From: a virus
Strand: one strand, 5' to 3'
IMG/VR virus record: IMGVR_UViG_3300002026_000009
Span: 1 to 64,000 of that record
Length of the DNA: 64,000 bases
The translations under genes were made by a program, and so were the position numbers. Positions 16,741 through 31,814 of this stretch are shown here, piece by piece; the first letter of the stretch is position 1; each line of letters opens with the position of its first letter. The notes under the pieces were generated by a model, which searched no databases, was not told the origin of the DNA, and saw only the letters and a list, made by a program, of their open reading frames with translations.

Positions 16741-17020
16741 GTTGACGGAAACGTATTCTGGACGGCGGGGCAGTACCGCCCAGGTCCACCATAAAACACA
16801 CTACGGCACTGTCTTAGTTCAGTGTGGTTCGATTAAGTAGTGTGTTTTATATTGGGCCTGACACAGTTTCGACAGGGTAAAGAGTACTGATATGGACAAC
16901 TCGTCAGGAGTAGACGTTAAAAGCAAACTAAACTAACCGCAAACGACAGCGAGTTCGCCCTAGCCGCTTAAGGCTTGGCTGAGGTTTGACCCGTTACCTT
17001 ATTAACAAAAACGGGTCACT
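16741..17020 (+). ncRNA. ssrA: circularly permuted (two-piece) tmRNA gene
   Basis: The acceptor piece ends ...GGAC-GGCGG-GGCAGTA-CCGCC-CAGGTCC-A-CCA at 16793. A 12-bp hairpin spacer occupies 16795-16850. The coding piece starts GGGCCTGACACAGTTTCGACAGGG at 16853. The acceptor stem GGGCCTG/CAGGTCC has a G3:U70 pair. The tag ORF GCA AAC GAC AGC GAG TTC GCC CTA GCC GCT TAA (16939-16971) encodes ANDSEFALAA. The outer boundaries are uncertain. Confidence 0.75.
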
Positions 17021-17030
17021 AATTTCTCTC

Positions 17031-17059
17031 TTGAAGACGCTGGTTATCTTTGATATAAT
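17031..17059 (+). promoter_or_regulatory. promoter TTGAAG-N17-TATAAT
   Basis: Hexamers read directly. Confidence 0.55.
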
Positions 17060-18366: not shown

Positions 18367-18443
18367 GCGGATATGACGAAATAGGTAAACGTGTCACGCT
18401 TAGAACGTGAATTCTGGGGGTTCGAGTCCCTCTATCCGCACCA
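18367..18443 (+). tRNA. class I tRNA with anticodon TAG (formally Leu-CUA reader, identity uncertain)
   Basis: Perfect acceptor GCGGATA/TATCCGC, anticodon arm TCACG-CTTAGAA-CGTGA, 5-nt variable loop, A73, CCA. 77 nt. Confidence 0.7.
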
Positions 18444-18454
18444 AGTTTTATGCA

Positions 18455-18526
18455 GCAGTTAGTGTAGTGGAAGCACATGAGTCTGTGAAACTCATAGGAA
18501 CGGATCGTATCCGTACTGACTGCCCA
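18455..18526 (+). tRNA. tRNA-His (GTG)
   Basis: G-1 (18455) lies opposite C73. Acceptor CAGTTAG/CTGACTG, anticodon arm TGAGT-CTGTGAA-ACTCA, reduced D arm, T loop ATCGTAT, CCA. Confidence 0.75.
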
Positions 18527-18778: not shown

Positions 18779-18873
18779 GCCACCATAGCTTAACGGTAAA
18801 GCTCCGGCCTTATACTCCGGCGATGGCTCTAGATTGGGGCATGATATAGGTTCGAATCCTATTGGTGGTACCA
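18779..18873 (+). tRNA. atypical tRNA, anticodon TAT (Ile-AUA type) with 25-nt variable insertion
   Basis: Acceptor GCCACCA/TGGTGGT, D arm GCTT-AACGGTA-AAGC, anticodon arm CCGGC-CTTATAC-TCCGG, extra hairpin at 18821-18845, T arm ATAGG-TTCGAAT-CCTAT, CCA. Confidence 0.55.
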
Positions 18874-18985: not shown

Positions 18986-19061
18986 CGCGGGGTATGTCAG
19001 CGGCAGACGGCTGGGCTCATAACCCAGAGGTCGTGGGTTCGAGTCCCACCCACCGCAACCA
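18986..19061 (+). tRNA. tRNA-Met (CAT), initiator-like
   Basis: The 5' CGCGGGG and the anticodon arm CTGGG-CTCATAA-CCCAG carry three G:C pairs, as in fMet tRNAs. The 3' end is ...CGCAACCA. Confidence 0.75.
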
Positions 19062-19068
19062 AATAAAT

Positions 19069-19143
19069 GCATCGTTAGCTCAGAGGTAGAGTTCCTGATT
19101 TACATTCAGGCTGTCGGCAGTTCGATCCTGTCACGATGTACCA
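19069..19143 (+). tRNA. tRNA-Val (TAC)
   Basis: Acceptor GCATCGT/ACGATGT, anticodon arm CCTGA-TTTACAT-TCAGG, CCA. Confidence 0.85.
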
Positions 19144-22487: not shown

Positions 22488-23213
22488 ATGAATAGTGGAA
22501 TTTACTCCCTTAAATGGGATTAGCAAGGTTTAATATATGTTGGCCTAAGCCAGGATATAGATGGCAGATTGAAAAGTCATATAAATATGTTACTAGGTAA
22601 CAGGCATACTAACTATAAAGTACAGAATGCTTTTAATAAATTTGGGCATCCAAGTACAGAAGTACTTGAATTATGTGACATATAGAAGCTAGCAGAAAGA
22701 GAAGTTTATTGGTGTAATAAACTAAATGCGCTAGGACCAAATGGGTTATGTATTGTTGAGCCTGGAATAGTAGGTTTTGGTACAAATAGCAACTATACTA
22801 AATATAGTAAATATCAAATACTAAAAGTATTTTCCTTGTTATACAATGGTCAAAAAAGTTAGACAGAAATAGAATAGATGACCAAAGTATAGTCTAGGAC
22901 TGTAAAAGATATTTCACGTGGTAATTAGCACTTATGGTTAAGGGAACAGTATCCCCAAAAATATGATTTAATGCTAAAAGCTGATAGAGCCGCTATAGGT
23001 ATTCAATAGAAATCCAGAACATTAAAAGGATACTTACTAACTCCATAGCTAGATGTCGTGCCTATACACAGTTATGCAGATTTTGTACGAAATATACATC
23101 CAGAACTGGATCAAAAGTAGATAAATACTATGGTCTAGGGTTTGGCAAGAGTTTTACGTGGCGAACGTAAAACTTATAAAGGGTATAGTAGAGCAGATGG
23201 AGTAGTCGCATAA
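22488..23213 (+). CDS. GIY-YIG homing endonuclease, 10 in-frame TAG
   Basis: 242 codons (MNSGIYSLKWD-TAG-QGLIYVGLSQDIDGRLKSH...YKGYSRADGVVA) with ten TAG and no TAA or TGA until 23211. The 3' end overlaps the suppressor tRNA. Confidence 0.6.
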
Positions 23214-23285
23214 CGGTATTGCAGGGGTCTCTAAAACCCCCGGTCAGAAATGGCCTTCTGAGTTCGACCCTCAGCTACTCCGCCA
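23199..23285 (+). tRNA. suppressor tRNA, anticodon CTA (reads TAG); Ser-type architecture
   Basis: Reads as GGAGTAG TC GCATAACGGTATTGC A GGGGT CTCTAAA ACCCC CGGTCAGAAATGGCCTT CTGAG TTCGACC CTCAG CTACTCC G CCA. It has a 3-bp D stem, a 17-nt variable arm, G73, and G2:C71, A3:U70 and C11:G24 pairs. Its arm lengths and variable arm match tRNA-Ser(GCT) at 27406. Confidence 0.85.
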
Positions 23286-24049: not shown

Positions 24050-24124
24050 GGAGGTATAACTTAACGGTTAAAGTACGGCACTTTTAATGCTGTAATCAGG
24101 GTTCGATTCCCTGTGCCTCCACCA
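24050..24124 (+). tRNA. tRNA-Lys (TTT)
   Basis: Acceptor GGAGGTA/TGCCTCC, anticodon arm CGGCA-CTTTTAA-TGCTG, CCA. Confidence 0.85.
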
Positions 24125-25069: not shown

Positions 25070-25276
25070 GCGACTAAAACAACACACTGTTGTAGCGAAA
25101 GTAAACTGCTTGGCGGCAGTTAAAATCAGTTACTTCAAACTATGATGGTCTGGGCTTGTAACCGGACGCCCCTCATATACGGTTAGTATATAATCCCTAA
25201 TGTAAGGCATGTTGTAGGTTAATGAACATGCTGAGCACTGATGCGGATATTCTCAATAGTGTGTTGCTTTAGTTGT
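25070..25276 (+). ncRNA. Y-RNA-like module 1 (long terminal stem)
   Basis: Positions 25070-25088 pair with 25258-25276 over 19 positions with one A:C mismatch. The interior contains CAGTTACTTC (25127) and the hairpins 25177-25191 and 25207-25232. Confidence 0.45.
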
Positions 25277-25283
25277 AGTGTTT

Positions 25284-25371
25284 AAATCGGTTACTTCTTT
25301 TTATTTGTTCTAAAAACGACTGGGTGTTCGATTCCCCGGAGGCCGCTGGTGCATGGGCCAATATCCGATTT
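25284..25371 (+). ncRNA. Y-RNA-like module 2
   Basis: Closing stem AAATCGG/CCGATTT, then TTACTTC, then a degenerate T-arm (GGGTGTTCGATTCCCC) and a D-arm-like GGCC-GCTGGTGCAT-GGCC. Confidence 0.4.
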
Positions 25372-25482
25372 TCCTGTTCTCAACTTTCTTCTTTGGTGTC
25401 TCGACCGTTACGTTCTCGTAATATAAAGACTTGATTTTAGGTAAACCGTCTCCCTAAAGCCAACCCTATTTTAGTAGTGTTA

Positions 25483-25586
25483 GAAACAGTTACTTCACTT
25501 TTAATGAAGAGGTCGGTGGTTCGAGTCCACCCAGGTTGGTCTCTAGCCTGTAGCTCAGTTGGATAGAGCGCTAAAATCTCTGTTTC
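25483..25586 (+). ncRNA. Y-RNA-like module 3 with permuted tRNA-like domain (YrlA-type)
   Basis: Closing stem GAAACAG/CTGTTTC. Order of elements: hairpin CTTCA-CTTTTAA-TGAAG, AGGTC, T arm GGTGG-TTCGAGT-CCACC, acceptor 3' strand CAGGTTG, cap GTCTC, acceptor 5' strand TAGCCTG, TA, D arm GCTC-AGTTGGATA-GAGC. Confidence 0.6.
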
Positions 25587-25621
25587 GTCTTGTTCTCTAA
25601 ATTCTTTTTTTAAAGGAAACT

Positions 25622-26932
25622 ATGTCTTCGATCAATCGCGTATCCCGTGTAGTTAATAAAACTTTCGAGGGTGCTGCTGCAAAACTAATTACTCCTGAAG
25701 CTAAGCTGAATCGTGTGGTTATGGCTTCCATGCTGTGGGAAGGACAATTTTACATCGACGGCCAAAAGTCGGCTGATGTAATTAAAGACCTTGTTGCTAA
25801 AGTCGACCCTAAGGTGGTAGAGTCTATTGCAATCAAGGCACGCGAAGCCATGAAACTTCGCCATGTGCCACTGTTCATTACCCGTGAACTGGCACGTATC
25901 GGCAAACTCTCACACGAGGTGCTAACTCGTGTTATCCAGCGTCCTGACGAATTGGGTGAGTTTGTATCAATGTATTGGATGGATAAGAAACAACCGCTGT
26001 CCAATCAAGTTAAACGTGGTCTAGCTAACGCTTTCCACAAGTTTAACGAATACCAGTTTGCTAAGTGGAATAAGTCTAGCGCAGCTGTGAAGCTCCGTGA
26101 TGTACTATTCCTAACCCACGCTAAACCTCGTACAGAGGGTGAGGCCGATCTCTTCAAGCGTATCGCTGATGAGAAACTGGAAACTCCAGATACTTGGGAA
26201 ACCGAGCTGTCTGGTGGTGCGGATAAAGGTGCTACCTTTACTCGCCTTATGAAGGAAAATAAGTTGGGTGCACTGGCATTCCTTCGTAACCTGCGGAATA
26301 TGGTACAGGCTGGAGTTGACGAAAGCCTTATCCGGGAATACGCTCGTGGTGTGAATACTGACCGTGTTCTTCCATTCCGCTTCCTTGCAGCAGCCCGCAT
26401 CGTTCCTCAATTCGAGGACATGCTGGAAAGCATGATGCTTCGTAGCCTTGAAAGCCACGAAAAGCTGCCAGGAAAAACCGTTCTGCTAATCGACGTTAGT
26501 GGCTCGATGTTCGGTACGAAAGTATCTGAAAAGAGCGATCTTGATCGTTTTGACGCAGCAGCTGCACTTGCTATTCTAGCTCGTGAAATCTGTGAAGAAG
26601 TAGAAATCTACTCCTTCTCGTACAACGCAGTTCGCGTTCCAGCCCGTCGTGGCATGGCACTGGTAGAGGCTATTCGCAACAGCCAAAACCACGGTGGTAC
26701 AGCAACAGGTAAAGCTGTTCGTAGCATTAACGCTAATGTTGAGTATACTCGCTGTATCATCTTCACCGATGAACAGTCGCATGACGTAGTACCTAACCCA
26801 ACAGGTATTGGTTATATCATCAACGTAGCTGCCTACGAAAACGGTATCGGTAACTCTAACTGGACTACCATTAGTGGTATGTCTGAAGCCGTTATCGACT
26901 ATATCCAGTTGTCTGAAAAGACAGTGGATTAA
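25622..26932 (+). CDS. rsr: Ro60-related protein (Rsr): TROVE + vWA domains
   Basis: 436 aa. The N-terminal part is TROVE-like. The vWA MIDAS motif LLIDVSGSM is present. AAAGGAAA RBS, TAA stop. Confidence 0.75.
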   Translation: MSSINRVSRVVNKTFEGAAAKLITPEAKLNRVVMASMLWEGQFYIDGQKSADVIKDLVAKVDPKVVESIAIKAREAMKLRHVPLFITRELARIGKLSHEVLTRVIQRPDELGEFVSMYWMDKKQPLSNQVKRGLANAFHKFNEYQFAKWNKSSAAVKLRDVLFLTHAKPRTEGEADLFKRIADEKLETPDTWETELSGGADKGATFTRLMKENKLGALAFLRNLRNMVQAGVDESLIREYARGVNTDRVLPFRFLAAARIVPQFEDMLESMMLRSLESHEKLPGKTVLLIDVSGSMFGTKVSEKSDLDRFDAAAALAILAREICEEVEIYSFSYNAVRVPARRGMALVEAIRNSQNHGGTATGKAVRSINANVEYTRCIIFTDEQSHDVVPNPTGIGYIINVAAYENGIGNSNWTTISGMSEAVIDYIQLSEKTVD

Positions 26933-27075
26933 AGACTAGAATTGATCCTTCTAGTCTACAACGCGTGATGCTCCAGGAACCACTTGCCTATGGTCGAGAG
27001 CTAGTAACCACACGGTAGTCAGTCCGGTTAAATAATGTTGGCTCTAAGCTTCGGCTTAGAAAAGTGCTTAGTGTA

Positions 27076-27116
27076 GTAACAGTTACTTCATTTTTGGTAT
27101 AATAAAAGCCTGTTAC
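27076..27116 (+). ncRNA. Y-RNA-like module 4 (stem-loop only)
   Basis: GTAACAG/CTGTTAC stem enclosing TTACTTC... Confidence 0.3.
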
Positions 27117-27272
27117 GCTTTTTCTAGCTCTTTTCTAAGCCATAGCGTATATTTTGATTACATCACTAACCACACTTCTAGTACCGCACAGTTGGGTGCA
27201 TGCAGGGTTCGAATCCCAGGGCAAAAACATCAAAATAGTTTTTCTTGGCTAATTTTTACAATCCTTAGCGTA

Positions 27273-27381
27273 TAAACAGTTACTTCTTAACCTCAATAGC
27301 CGTACCTGGGTTCGATTCCCAGCATCCCTAAACTGGGGTGTAATCTAATGGTAGGATTGGCTAACTAAAAAAGCCTGTTTA
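27273..27381 (+). ncRNA. Y-RNA-like module 5 with permuted tRNA-like domain (YrlA-type)
   Basis: Closing stem TAAACAG/CTGTTTA, then TTACTTC. T arm CTGGG-TTCGATT-CCCAG, acceptor CATCCCT-AAAC-TGGGGTG capped by a tetraloop, then TA and the D arm ATCT-AATGGTA-GGAT. Confidence 0.6.
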
Positions 27382-27405
27382 ATTTTTCTAGGATTACTTT
27401 ATATT

Positions 27406-28838: not shown

Positions 28839-28913
28839 AATACAGTGGCCGAGCGGCGAGGCAAGTGATTGCAAATCACTATTATGTGGGTTCGAATCCC
28901 ATCTGTATTTCCA
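28839..28913 (+). tRNA. tRNA-Cys (GCA)
   Basis: Perfect acceptor AATACAG/CTGTATT, anticodon loop TTGCAAA, U73, CCA. Confidence 0.85.
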
Positions 28914-28914
28914 T

Positions 28915-28991
28915 AGTCAAGTAGCTCCAACGGTTAGAGTAACGGTTTCATACGCCGGCTGTTGTAGGTTCGAGTCCTACCTTGACTACCA
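28915..28991 (+). tRNA. tRNA (CAT): elongator Met or Ile2
   Basis: Acceptor AGTCAAG/CTTGACT, anticodon loop TTCATAC, T arm GTAGG-TTCGAGT-CCTAC, CCA. Confidence 0.8.
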
Positions 28992-30989: not shown

Positions 30990-31522
30990 GCAATATTTTT
31001 CTTATTAGTGATAGTCACTTCTCACACGAAAATAGCTGGAAAACCTTCAAGCTAGATGACGGAGTTACTCCAATGCGTCCATTTACCTCAACTGAGGAAA
31101 TGGATGAAACAATGGTAGATAATTGGAACCGTGTAGTACGTCCACAAGACAAAGTATATCATCTAGGTGATATTGCAATGTCTAAGCGTCCACTACATGC
31201 AATCATGCCTAGACTTAATGGAGAGAAAGTCCTTATTAAAGGCAACCATGATATTGAAAAAATTACTTGCTACCTCCAGTACTTTAAGGATGTTAGAGGT
31301 AGTCACATGCTCGATAGGTTGGCGCTTAGTCACATACCTATTCATCCTGATAGTCTATCTCGCTGGCGCGGCAACATTCACGGGCATTTGCACAACTACC
31401 ACGTAAAACTTCCTAACGGGTTATTCGACCCTAGATACGTTTGTGTTAGTGTAGAGCGTATTAACTATACTCCGATACCTTTCGAAGAAGTTAATACTAT
31501 GTTTAAGGCAAGAGGTCTTTAA
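30986..31522 (+). CDS. metallophosphoesterase (Ser/Thr phosphatase-like)
   Basis: Motifs ISDSHF, HLGDI, GNHD and GHLH. Confidence 0.7.
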   Translation: MSNIFLISDSHFSHENSWKTFKLDDGVTPMRPFTSTEEMDETMVDNWNRVVRPQDKVYHLGDIAMSKRPLHAIMPRLNGEKVLIKGNHDIEKITCYLQYFKDVRGSHMLDRLALSHIPIHPDSLSRWRGNIHGHLHNYHVKLPNGLFDPRYVCVSVERINYTPIPFEEVNTMFKARGL

Positions 31523-31528
31523 TTAACC

Positions 31529-31800
31529 GCACTCATAGCTCAATGGTTAGAGCAGTGAACTTAAAATAATGGGTCGCTATATTGGAAACGATATAGTAGT
31601 CAGGTGTAAATTCGGTGAACGCTTTAATATGCCAACGCCGAGCGAAGCCCGAAAGGGAACGTGTAGAGACTATAATCACCCACCTAAGGCTTGCTAAGGT
31701 GAAGGCATAGTCCAGACCACAAACATTAATACTGGTAGTGAAAACTATAGTGGTAAGCATAATTCATTGGTTACAGGTTCGAGTCCTGTTGAGTGCACCA
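31529..31800 (+). tRNA. tRNA (CAT) interrupted by a group I intron
   Basis: Exons 31529-31561 and 31758-31800 join into a 76-nt cloverleaf: GCACTCA..GTGAA-CT|CATAA-TTCAT..TGAGTGC-A-CCA. Splice points are approximate, within 1-2 nt. Confidence 0.75.
31562..31757 (+). mobile_element. group I intron (~196 nt, no ORF) in tRNA anticodon loop
   Basis: The 5' exon ends in U and the intron ends in G. P7-type elements GTAGAGACTATAA and AAGGCATAGTCC are present. Confidence 0.65.
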
Positions 31801-31814
31801 TATAAAAAATAATC

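What the first reader, a model, noticed from the sequence alone, without database searches (positions are those of the whole stretch)
25483..25586. Complete circularly permuted cloverleaf upstream of rsr (YrlA-type tRNA mimic)
Read 5' to 3', the elements are:
- an anticodon-like hairpin, CTTCA-CTTTTAA-TGAAG
- a variable loop, AGGTC
- a perfect T arm, GGTGG-TTCGAGT-CCACC
- the acceptor 3' strand CAGGTTG, a 5-nt cap, and the acceptor 5' strand TAGCCTG, with a G:U pair at the 3:70 position
- TA, then a perfect D arm, GCTC-AGTTGGATA-GAGC

All four tRNA arms are present. The acceptor end is capped, and the chain is opened between the D and anticodon arms. The ends are joined by the 7-bp helix GAAACAG/CTGTTTC.

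A second copy with the same topology lies at 27273-27381:
- T arm CTGGG-TTCGATT-CCCAG
- acceptor CATCCCT-AAAC-TGGGGTG
- D arm ATCT-AATGGTA-GGAT

This is the topology reported for bacterial YrlA Y RNAs. Here it occurs next to 28 genuine tRNA genes.
Basis: partly seen in the sequence, partly recalled or inferred. Interest (0 to 1): 0.8.

Follow-up and report, generated by a model that had tools for sequence, protein, structure and literature searches.

The report
Phage Y RNA shaped like tRNA
The element is a real, conserved small-RNA gene of a known class (a YrlA-type Y RNA, a rearranged tRNA look-alike) that partners with the Ro60/Rsr protein encoded just downstream. It is a new example of a known kind, not a new kind of molecule.

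Summary
Window 25483-25586 folds, without constraints, into a closing helix enclosing an anticodon-like hairpin, a 5-nt variable loop, a T arm, a capped 7-bp acceptor stem and a D arm. The next gene (25622-26932) encodes a TROVE+vWA protein whose best solved relative is the Ro60 of Thermus phage phiLo.

Thermodynamics alone is unremarkable. The support is comparative:
- Homologous elements lie upstream of rsr in related viral contigs, and in Xanthomonas and Mycobacterium phages, where they are mis-annotated as tRNA-Thr.
- In 122 distinct homologues, 91.5% of predicted pairs form, against 62% (shuffled) and about 44% (slid) in the controls. All 26 pairs show compensatory changes.

The element is a YrlA-class Y RNA, a family already reported in more than 250 bacteria and phages. 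Its circular-permutation relation to tRNA is also published.

What I add:
- The published "V" stem-loop carries an anticodon-loop signature (Y32-U33-NNN-R37-A38 with a free triplet) in many viral and bacterial members.
- The full RNA is longer than reported, about 25470-25601, because it includes a terminal stem.
- The rsr gene is flanked by four well-supported Y-RNA modules and two weaker candidates.
- The "second copy" has the canonical YrlA topology and no anticodon hairpin.

Verdict: new member of a known kind, of modest interest.

The parts
25470..25482 (+). 5' strand of the terminal stem (UUUAG-U-AG) plus 5' internal loop UGUUA; this is the position of the Ro-binding motif
   Evidence: MFE fold. 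Relatives carry GGCGAAG, GGCGTAG or GGTGTAG at this position.
25483..25489 (+). Closing helix, 5' strand GAAACAG
   Evidence: Pairs with 25580-25586. In 38 homologues, 6 of its 7 pairs show compensatory changes. In 122 homologues, all 7 do.
25490..25493 (+). UUAC, the conserved YUAY motif of YrlA RNAs
   Evidence: ACAGTTACTTC occurs exactly three times around rsr, plus one near copy 1 mismatch away (25126) and a second 2 mismatches away read from the sequence (about 25287). Chen 2014 (PMC4201824) describes YUAY at the start of the V region.
25493..25509 (+). Anticodon-like hairpin: 5-bp stem CUUCA/UGAAG with 7-nt loop CUUUUAA
   Evidence: The partial tRNA model match covers positions 7-64 at 27.5 bits. 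The family-wide loop signature is Y32 U33 NNN R37 A38.
25510..25514 (+). Variable loop AGGUC; C48 can form a Levitt pair with G15
   Evidence: Sequence reading. AGGTC is the commonest linker in the family.
25515..25531 (+). T arm GGUGG-UUCGAGU-CCACC
   Evidence: In the realigned set of 122 homologues, 99.2% of its cells are paired and all 5 pairs show compensatory changes.
25532..25550 (+). Closed 7-bp acceptor stem CAGGUUG / UAGCCUG with cap GUCUC
   Evidence: Covariation. G3:U70 is not conserved (9 of 130 elements).
25551..25569 (+). U8 A9 followed by the D arm GCUC-AGUUGGAUA-GAGC
   Evidence: 99.8% of its cells are paired in the realigned set.
25570..25579 (+). 10-nt single-stranded linker GCUAAAAUCU between the D stem and the closing helix
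   Evidence: A linker of 9-11 nt is typical in relatives. No compensated pairing with UUA was found.
25580..25601 (+). Closing helix 3' strand CUGUUUC, 3' internal loop GUCUUGUU, and terminal stem 3' strand CUCUAAA
   Evidence: The 3' flank YGYYUnGUUCY is conserved in relatives.
25622..26932 (+). rsr: Ro60/Rsr orthologue, 436 aa, TROVE + vWA domains with MIDAS motif DVSGS
   Evidence: Pfam TROVE 5.5e-13. PDB 9KOP/9L5Y (phage phiLo Ro60) at E = 7e-23 over residues 12-428. Translation. 95 phage records carry homologues.
27260..27395 (+). Element B: second YrlA-type RNA with canonical topology (anticodon stem made by distal strands, T arm, closed acceptor, D arm AUCU/GGAU)
   Evidence: Model R1: 40 bits, E = 1.6e-9, full length. 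Fold. The orthologue L012 2681-2809 has a fully covarying anticodon stem, ACUGC/GUAGU. No Rfam YrlA hit.
25271..25385 (+). Module M2: same terminal stem, closing helix (AAAUCGG/CCGAUUU) and UUACUUC, but the insert is only a T arm plus hairpin GGCC-GCUGGUGCAUG-GGCC (no acceptor stem)
   Evidence: R1: 27.7 bits, E = 3e-6. Fold. 85% identical to L004 4845-4967. Orthologues also in L005, L008 and L009.
27143..27251 (+). Module M5: closing helix AUUUUGAU/AUCAAAAU and UACAUC. The insert has a D-like hairpin before a degenerate T arm.
   Evidence: R1: 21.2 bits, E = 2e-4. Fold. Orthologue in L007.
27053..27141 (+). Module M4: mini Y RNA. A long terminal stem, closing helix UAACAG/CUGUUA and UUACUUC, with no tRNA-like insert.
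   Evidence: Fold z = -3.9. Exact ACAGTTACTTC motif. R1: 12.5 bits, E = 0.04. Mini versions also occur in L010, L011, L015 and L018.
25111..25262 (+). Module M1: weak candidate with GGCGGCAG, helix AUCAG/CUGAU and UCAGUUACUUC
   Evidence: Motif with 1 mismatch. Fold. R1 gives only 6 bits, which is not significant. No orthologue found.

Best explanation
Element A (about 25470-25601) is the gene for a YrlA-class Y RNA, the non-coding partner of the phage-encoded Ro60/Rsr protein made from the next gene.

Proposed anatomy:
- The 5' and 3' ends pair into a terminal stem with an internal loop, the position where Ro60 proteins bind Y RNAs.
- A covarying 7-bp helix then opens into a module that is a complete tRNA in circularly permuted order: anticodon arm, variable loop, T arm, capped acceptor stem, D arm.

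Proposed mechanism:
- The module folds into the tRNA L-shape. Every nucleotide needed for the standard tertiary contacts is present.
- It is therefore handled by tRNA-recognising proteins. By analogy with characterised YrlAs these include TruB, Dus, and, because the acceptor stem has 7 bp, probably RNase P and the CCA-adding enzyme.
- This tethers an effector to the Rsr ring, or gates access to it, for degradation or surveillance of structured RNA during infection. Host PNPase is the effector shown for other Y RNAs.

What is shown here: the gene, its structure, its conservation and its linkage to rsr. What is inferred from the family: Rsr binding, folding, processing and the effector.

Origin: the arrangement fits the published dimeric-tRNA model, with the anticodon arm of the upstream tRNA still intact.
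For: - Exact structure.
- The adjacent gene is a Ro60 orthologue.
- Rfam YrlA full-length match, E = 7e-7.
- Orthologues upstream of rsr in six related contigs at 75-81% nucleotide identity, while the Rsr proteins are only 53-65% identical.
- RNAalifold on an unguided MAFFT alignment recovers the closing helix and the T, acceptor and D helices.
- 122 distinct homologues: 91.5% of cells paired against 62% (shuffled) and about 44% (slid); 26 of 26 pairs have compensatory changes.
- The hairpin is perfect in 32 of 79 viral and 19 of 76 bacterial members, against 3% of shuffles. U33 is present in 48 of 51 and the triplet is variable.
- 102 of 102 un-permuted members whose hairpin has at least 4 of its 5 stem pairs are called tRNA by ARAGORN.
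- Rsr is encoded a median 275-342 nt from elements found by the RNA pattern alone.
- Literature: YrlA binds Rsr, carries pseudouridine and dihydrouridine, and M. smegmatis YrlA with a 7-bp acceptor stem is cut by RNase P and receives CCA (PMC4201824). L-shape crystal structure and the dimeric-tRNA origin model (bioRxiv 10.1101/312249). Phage Ro60 binds phage Y-like RNAs and host PNPase (PMC12135203).
Against: - The Rfam YrlA score is below the curated threshold (40.9 against 69).
- The literal Ro-binding motif GNCGAAN0-1G is absent in the window. The sequence there is GUAGUGUUAG.
- Fold energies do not differ from shuffles.
- There is no expression, end-mapping or binding data.
- No convincing promoter or terminator delimits the RNA.
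- No RtcB or RNA ligase is encoded in the 64 kb, so the RNA-repair link seen in Salmonella is missing.
- It cannot be decided from sequence whether the hairpin or the closing helix stacks under the D stem.
Confidence: 0.87

Rival explanations
1. Anti-defence decoy or bait. The complete tRNA-like module, with a U-turn anticodon loop (here identical to the tRNA-Lys UUU loop), competes for or absorbs host tRNA-targeting nucleases, or reports their activity to Rsr. This concerns what the Y RNA does and does not exclude that it is a Y RNA.
For: - The anticodon-loop signature is kept while the triplet drifts.
- The gene sits in a phage tRNA array, a feature linked in the field to evasion of anticodon nucleases (my own knowledge).
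- Hughes et al. 2020 (PMC7790460) proposed that YrlA's tRNA-like domain may act as a competitive inhibitor of an anticodon nuclease.
Against: - The triplet differs among close orthologues (UUU, UCU, UAU, GCU). No single nuclease specificity is conserved.
- Many family members, including element B and S. Typhimurium YrlA, lack the hairpin altogether.
- There is no experimental support.
Confidence: 0.12
2. A genuine circularly permuted tRNA gene. The transcript would be circularised or re-ligated at 26/27 and opened at the acceptor end to yield a decoding tRNA-Lys(UUU), as in Cyanidioschyzon permuted tRNAs.
For: - All four arms and all tertiary-pair nucleotides are present.
- The un-permuted sequence is called tRNA-Lys by ARAGORN.
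- Wang et al. raised the possibility that some YrlAs are processed towards canonical tRNAs (bioRxiv 10.1101/312249).
Against: - There is no bulge-helix-bulge motif. The closing helix is a plain 7-bp stem.
- The conserved Ro-type terminal stem and the linkage to rsr are unexplained by this model.
- The anticodon is not conserved among orthologues.
- The window already encodes a standard tRNA-Lys(UUU) at 24050-24124.
- No RNA ligase is encoded in the window.
Confidence: 0.03
3. Non-functional debris: the junction of two decayed tandem tRNA genes that happens to fold.
For: Real tandem tRNA junctions in the window match the central part of my model. For example, 19011-19096 scores 38 bits over model positions 24-102.
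Against: - Such junctions lack the closing helix and flanks. Element A matches all 127 model positions at 108.7 bits (A was one of the 38 sequences the model was built from, so its own score is not independent evidence).
- The two acceptor strands are complementary to each other.
- No full tRNA is found on either side.
- Conservation and compensatory changes occur across many phages and bacteria.
Confidence: 0.02

Closest known systems
Mycobacterium smegmatis YrlA and mycobacteriophage YrlAs (Chen et al. 2014, RNA 20:1715, PMC4201824)
   Same: - Encoded just upstream of rsr.
- Same order: terminal stem, YUAY, extra hairpin ('V'), T arm, closed 7-bp acceptor stem, D arm.
- The published M. smegmatis primer CACTTCTAATGGAATGGTCGC shows the same hairpin: a CUUCUAA loop, followed by UGGUC and then the T stem.
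- The Mycobacterium prophage element L003 aligns with element A.
   Different: - The window's 5' Ro-motif is diverged: GUAGUGUUAG instead of GNCGAAN0-1G.
- The host genome is an uncultured phage whose replication genes look T5-like to me (not tested against T5), and the gene sits inside a 28-tRNA array.
- Chen et al. interpret the hairpin as a variable arm. Here it is shown to have anticodon-arm dimensions and loop signature.
Salmonella Typhimurium YrlA (Rfam RF02553; crystal structure 6CU1, Wang et al. 2018)
   Same: - tRNA-like L-shaped module with the T arm 5' of the D arm.
- Closed acceptor stem and YUAY motif.
- Rsr partner.
- Circular-permutation relation to tRNA (also PMC11472068).
- Element B of the window has this topology.
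   Different: - S. Typhimurium YrlA has no anticodon loop or hairpin, and its acceptor stem has 6 bp.
- It lies in an rsr-yrlBA-rtcBA repair operon under RtcR.
- Element A has the hairpin and a 7-bp acceptor stem, with no rtcB nearby. It scores only 40.9 bits against the Rfam model.
Thermus phage phiLo Ro60 with Yrl1/Yrl2 (NAR 2025, PMC12135203)
   Same: - A phage-encoded Ro60, which is the best PDB match of the window's protein.
- Several Y-like RNAs are encoded next to it.
- The proposed role is hijacking host PNPase.
   Different: As that paper describes them, the phiLo Yrls are stem-bulge-stem RNAs with a CGAA motif; a tRNA-like module is not among the features it lists. In the window, the modules with an insert carry tRNA-like domains.
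Circularly permuted tRNA genes of Cyanidioschyzon and some archaea
   Same: The 3' half is encoded before the 5' half, the acceptor end is initially closed, and the transcript ends pair.
   Different: Those genes mature into decoding tRNAs through a bulge-helix-bulge splicing endonuclease and a ligase. No such motif exists here, the anticodon is not conserved, and the element is linked to rsr.

Membership tests
YrlA-class bacterial/phage Y RNA | Encoded next to a Ro60/Rsr (TROVE + vWA) gene | tested here: met
   The element ends 20-35 nt before ORF 25622-26932. That ORF hits TROVE at 5.5e-13 and matches phage phiLo Ro60 at E = 7e-23.
YrlA-class bacterial/phage Y RNA | tRNA-like module with the T arm 5' of the D arm and a closed acceptor stem-loop between them | tested here: met
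   Supported by covariation.
YrlA-class bacterial/phage Y RNA | Conserved nucleotides for tRNA tertiary contacts (U8, A14, G15:C48, G18G19, U54 U55 C56, A58) | tested here: met
   Read directly from the sequence: UA 25551-25552, D loop AGUUGGAUA, T loop UUCGAGU, variable loop AGGUC.
YrlA-class bacterial/phage Y RNA | Conserved YUAY before the V region | tested here: met
   UUAC at 25490-25493. GUUACYUC recurs in at least 120 viral and at least 120 bacterial loci.
YrlA-class bacterial/phage Y RNA | GNCGAAN0-1G motif near the 5' end (presumed Rsr contact) | tested here: inconclusive
   The window has GUAGUGUUAG at the homologous place. Relatives have GGCGAAG, GGCGUAG or GGUGUAG. The stem and internal-loop geometry is kept.
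YrlA-class bacterial/phage Y RNA | Score at or above the Rfam RF02553 gathering threshold (69 bits) | tested here: not met
   40.9 bits, E = 7e-7. All 11 phage homologues matched also score below threshold (32-56 bits), so the model under-represents this subtype.
YrlA-class bacterial/phage Y RNA | Bound by Rsr in vivo; carries pseudouridine-55 and dihydrouridine; expressed as a discrete RNA | not testable with these tools
   Needs immunoprecipitation, Northern blot or RNA-seq, and modification mapping.
Functional circularly permuted tRNA gene | Bulge-helix-bulge motif at the junction of the transcript ends | tested here: not met
   The closing helix is an uninterrupted 7-bp stem flanked by a 3-nt and a 10-nt single strand.
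Functional circularly permuted tRNA gene | Anticodon identity conserved among orthologues | tested here: not met
   Orthologues read UUU, UCU, UAU, GCU and UGU.
Tandem tRNA gene junction | Complete tRNA on each side of the junction | tested here: not met
   ARAGORN and the Rfam tRNA model find no full tRNA overlapping 25400-25620. Only a partial match to model positions 7-64 is seen.

The most novel reading that the evidence does not exclude
Element A has a 7-bp acceptor stem, like the RNase P-cleaved M. smegmatis YrlA. The cap could therefore be opened and CCA added. That would leave, held on the phage Rsr ring, a two-piece molecule with all four arms of a tRNA, including a canonical U-turn anticodon loop. 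Such an RNP could act as bait, decoy or sensor for host anticodon-loop nucleases, making Rsr with its Y RNAs an anti-defence device of phages that carry tRNA arrays. The variable effector modules on one common Rsr-binding stem would then be a panel of different baits.
Probability: 0.1. Interest if true: 0.75.

Novelty: new member of a known kind. Interest (0 to 1): 0.3.

Why it matters
The effector and the physiological role of YrlA RNAs are still unknown. This locus offers a compact natural comparison: one Rsr gene and several Y-RNA modules that share the same terminal stem but carry different tRNA-like inserts. The inserts are a full permuted cloverleaf, the canonical YrlA form, a T-plus-D "elbow" only, and none.

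It also gives sequence-level support to the published idea that YrlAs arose from dimeric tRNA transcripts, because the anticodon arm of the upstream tRNA is still recognisable.

In practical terms, genome annotators miscall these RNAs as tRNA-Thr, and Rfam's YrlA model misses the phage subtype at its curated threshold.

Tried and rejected
- **Thermodynamic significance.** z-scores of -0.95 to -1.9 for A and B are not informative.
- **Near-identity search** of 24 kb of the window against 50,697 phage records found no match, so the genome is uncultured.
- **Rfam at gathering threshold** misses both elements.
- **MAFFT alignments** put the hairpin in two registers, CUUCN/N'GAAG and UUCNN/N'N'GAG. 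RNAalifold therefore did not predict it. I resolved this with anchor-based parsing and a covariance model.
- **A short anticodon stem** formed by UUA (25490-25492) with UAA in the 3' linker. I rejected this because UUAC is invariant while the partner varies without compensation (CGAA, CGAU, CCUA...).
- **G3:U70 as an alanine identity element.** It is not conserved: 9 of 130 elements, and G-C in the closest relative L112.
- **Search for RtcB, RNA ligase or PNK in the window.** None was found among the 30 further ORFs scanned (of the 63 ORFs of at least 110 aa; a dozen or so non-overlapping ones were left unscanned); those with hits are replication, nucleotide-metabolism and lysis genes that look T5-like to me.
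- **Promoter and terminator scan.** Counts were no better than shuffles.
- **Reviews.** Sim & Wolin 2018 and the 2020 Annual Review are not held in the library. I could not check whether they already note the anticodon-loop signature of the V hairpin.

Full report
**1. The observation**

- Closing helix GAAACAG 25483-25489 with CTGTTTC 25580-25586.
- Hairpin CTTCA-CTTTTAA-TGAAG 25493-25509.
- Variable loop AGGTC 25510-25514.
- T arm 25515-25531.
- Acceptor CAGGTTG, cap GTCTC, TAGCCTG, spanning 25532-25550.
- TA 25551-25552 and D arm 25553-25569.

Unconstrained RNAfold returns exactly this five-helix structure. The energy is not better than that of shuffled sequence (z = -0.95 to -1.3), so folding energy alone proves nothing.

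If the chain is re-joined between positions 26 and 27 and the cap opened, ARAGORN calls the result tRNA-Lys(ttt). ARAGORN and Rfam find no ordinary tRNA at the locus. There is only a partial tRNA match to model positions 7-64.

**2. The neighbouring gene**

ORF 25622-26932 (436 aa) has TROVE and vWA domains and a DVSGS MIDAS motif. Its best solved relative is the Ro60 of Thermus phage phiLo (E = 7e-23 over residues 12-428). Homologues occur in 95 phage records, including Ralstonia RsoM2USA (58% identity), Caulobacter CcrColossus, Brevundimonas jumbo phages, 43-kb Xanthomonas phages and crAss-like phages.

The rest of the window looks T5-like to me (not tested against T5). It contains a two-part NAD ligase, primase, DnaB, Pol A, SbcCD and RNR, with 26 tRNAs called by ARAGORN and a permuted tmRNA. 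No RtcB or RNA ligase was found. The genome has no close cultured relative.

**3. Identity of the element**

- Rfam's YrlA model matches 25483-25589 end to end at 40.9 bits, E = 7e-7. This is below its gathering score of 69.
- blastn finds about 78-80% identity to elements in Xanthomonas/Xylella phages and a Mycobacterium abscessus prophage. These lie just upstream of a Ro-like gene, and two of the three records inspected mis-annotate them as tRNA-Thr.
- Fifteen IMG/VR contigs encode Rsr proteins 46-65% identical to the window's, again inside tRNA arrays.
- Six of those contigs carry an orthologue of element A at 75-81% nucleotide identity.
- The 11 phage homologues that Rfam YrlA matched in the eight loci scanned also score below threshold, at 32-56 bits. 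Failing the curated cut-off is therefore a property of the subtype, not of this copy.

**4. Comparative structure**

A pattern built from RNA features only, GTTACYTC followed within 10-35 nt by a T loop, hits at least 120 viral contigs and at least 120 bacterial genomes. The bacteria include Streptomyces, Amycolatopsis, Chryseobacterium and Acidobacteria.

Among loci that carry a T arm, a closed acceptor stem and a D arm, 50 of 61 viral and 49 of 65 bacterial loci also encode an Rsr homologue. The median distance is 275-342 nt.

RNAalifold on an unguided MAFFT alignment of 38 elements predicts the closing helix and the T, acceptor and D helices. Thirteen to 21 sequences show double changes at six of the seven closing-helix pairs.

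I built a covariance model (R1) and realigned 122 distinct matches:
- 91.5% of cells pair, against 62% after shuffling and about 44% when partners are slid.
- All 26 pairs have compensatory changes.

The alignment was fitted to the model, which favours the structure. The unguided result agrees with it.

**5. The hairpin**

Chen et al. [quoted passage not shown]

Across 79 viral and 76 bacterial non-redundant full elements:
- A 5-bp stem with a 7-nt loop is perfect in 32 and 19 elements, and has one mismatch in 25 and 26.
- In shuffles the figures are 3% and 21-24%.
- The loop reads Y32 (46 of 51), U33 (48 of 51), a highly variable triplet (17 and 16 different triplets), R37 (48 of 51) and A38 (45 of 51).
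- It is usually followed by A/UGGUC.

This is the size and signature of an anticodon arm plus a class-I variable loop. After un-permutation, 102 of 102 elements whose hairpin has at least 4 of its 5 stem pairs are called tRNAs by ARAGORN.

The M. smegmatis YrlA primer printed in Chen et al. (CACTTCTAATGGAATGGTCGC) shows the same hairpin. Element A therefore belongs to the experimentally characterised M. smegmatis subtype.

The solved S. Typhimurium YrlA, by contrast, "lacks the anticodon loop". Its anticodon stem is made by the two distal strands (bioRxiv 10.1101/312249).

Sequence cannot decide whether the hairpin or the closing helix stacks under the D stem. A short UUA:UAA pairing that would favour the variable-arm reading is not supported, because the partner varies without compensation.

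**6. The full unit and its siblings**

A terminal stem (25470-25477 with 25595-25601) and an internal loop flank the closing helix. Relatives have GGCGAAG, GGCGUAG or GGUGUAG on the 5' side and YGYYUnGUUCY on the 3' side. That is Chen's GNCGAAN0-1G Ro motif. The window's version, GUAGUGUUAG, is diverged.

The same frame of terminal stem, closing helix and UUACUUC recurs around rsr:

| Module | Coordinates | Insert | Evidence |
|---|---|---|---|
| B | 27260-27395 | Canonical YrlA topology | R1 40 bits, E = 1.6e-9; orthologue in L012 with a fully covarying anticodon stem |
| M2 | 25271-25385 | T arm plus a D-like hairpin, no acceptor | 27.7 bits; 85% identical to L004 |
| M5 | 27143-27251 | D-like hairpin before a degenerate T arm | 21.2 bits; orthologue in L007 |
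| M4 | 27053-27141 | None | Fold z = -3.9; R1 12.5 bits, E = 0.04 |
| M1 | 25111-25262 | Unclear | Weak candidate; R1 not significant |

Arrays of two to four such RNAs are common in the other loci.

**7. Mechanism**

Shown here: the gene, its structure, its conservation and its linkage to rsr.

Inferred from characterised members:
- The terminal stem binds Rsr.
- The tRNA-like module folds into an L-shape and is modified by TruB and Dus.
- With a 7-bp acceptor stem it is probably cut by RNase P and given CCA, as in M. smegmatis (PMC4201824).
- The RNP tethers an exoribonuclease such as host PNPase to the ring, or gates access to it (PMC4201824, PMC12135203).

A decoy role against anticodon nucleases has been suggested for YrlA (PMC7790460). 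It is not excluded here, but the triplet is not conserved even among close orthologues.

**8. Novelty**

YrlA RNAs in phages, their tRNA mimicry, the circular-permutation relation to tRNA and the dimeric-tRNA origin model are all published (PMC4201824; bioRxiv 10.1101/312249; PMC11472068).

New here:
- An additional member, in an uncultured phage whose replication genes look T5-like to me.
- The quantitative anticodon-loop signature of the "V" hairpin.
- The set of modular Y RNAs around one rsr gene.
- The annotation pitfalls.

I rate it a new member of a known kind, with modest interest.

Noticed in passing
window 31521-31803 (+): A tRNA gene split by an insert of about 200 nt in the anticodon loop. 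The 5' half is GCACTCA-TA-GCTC-AATGGTTA-GAGC..., with loop CTTAAAA. The 3' half is ACAGG-TTCGAGT-CCTGT-TGAGTGC-A-CCA. The acceptor strands are perfectly complementary. The insert matches Rfam Intron_gpI at 46.3 bits (threshold 50), E = 1e-10, at 31552-31735. This is a likely group I intron in a tRNA-Leu(UAA)-like gene, missed by ARAGORN.
   Followed up: partly
window 16683-17046 (+); also L008 4074-4472: A permuted (two-piece type) tmRNA gene. Rfam tmRNA_permuted scores 123 bits and beta_tmRNA 108 bits. It lies just upstream of the tRNA array and is also present in a related viral contig.
   Followed up: partly
L001 2487-2554 (Xanthomonas phage 10KY502B, OQ622092.1); L003 2473-2551 (Mycobacterium prophage prophiGD43A-5, MW584167.1): GenBank annotations call the 5' part of the YrlA-type RNA 'tRNA-Thr (tgt)'. 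The anticodon-like hairpin and T arm evidently mislead tRNA finders. The Ro-like gene follows within about 100-700 nt.
   Followed up: yes
window 19011-19096, 28864-28941, 18394-18477 (+): Junctions between adjacent genuine tRNA genes match the central part of the Y-RNA model (positions 24-102, up to 38 bits) but not the closing helix. This illustrates the published idea that YrlAs arose from dimeric tRNA transcripts.
   Followed up: partly
window 23199-23285 (+): ARAGORN calls an 87-nt 'tRNA-Pyl (cta)', that is, an amber-reading tRNA. Rfam's tRNA model does not report it at the gathering threshold. It may be a suppressor tRNA or a false call.
   Followed up: no
window 18779-18873 (+): The tRNA-Ile(tat) call is 95 nt long, unusually long for a class-I tRNA. 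It may carry an insertion.
   Followed up: no
L001 2029-2155, 2267-2393, 2485-2610; L003 2483-2603, 2644-2766, 2813-2930; L076 9316-10018: Other phages carry tandem arrays of three or four YrlA-type RNAs upstream of rsr. Hairpin-bearing and hairpin-less versions sit side by side.
   Followed up: partly
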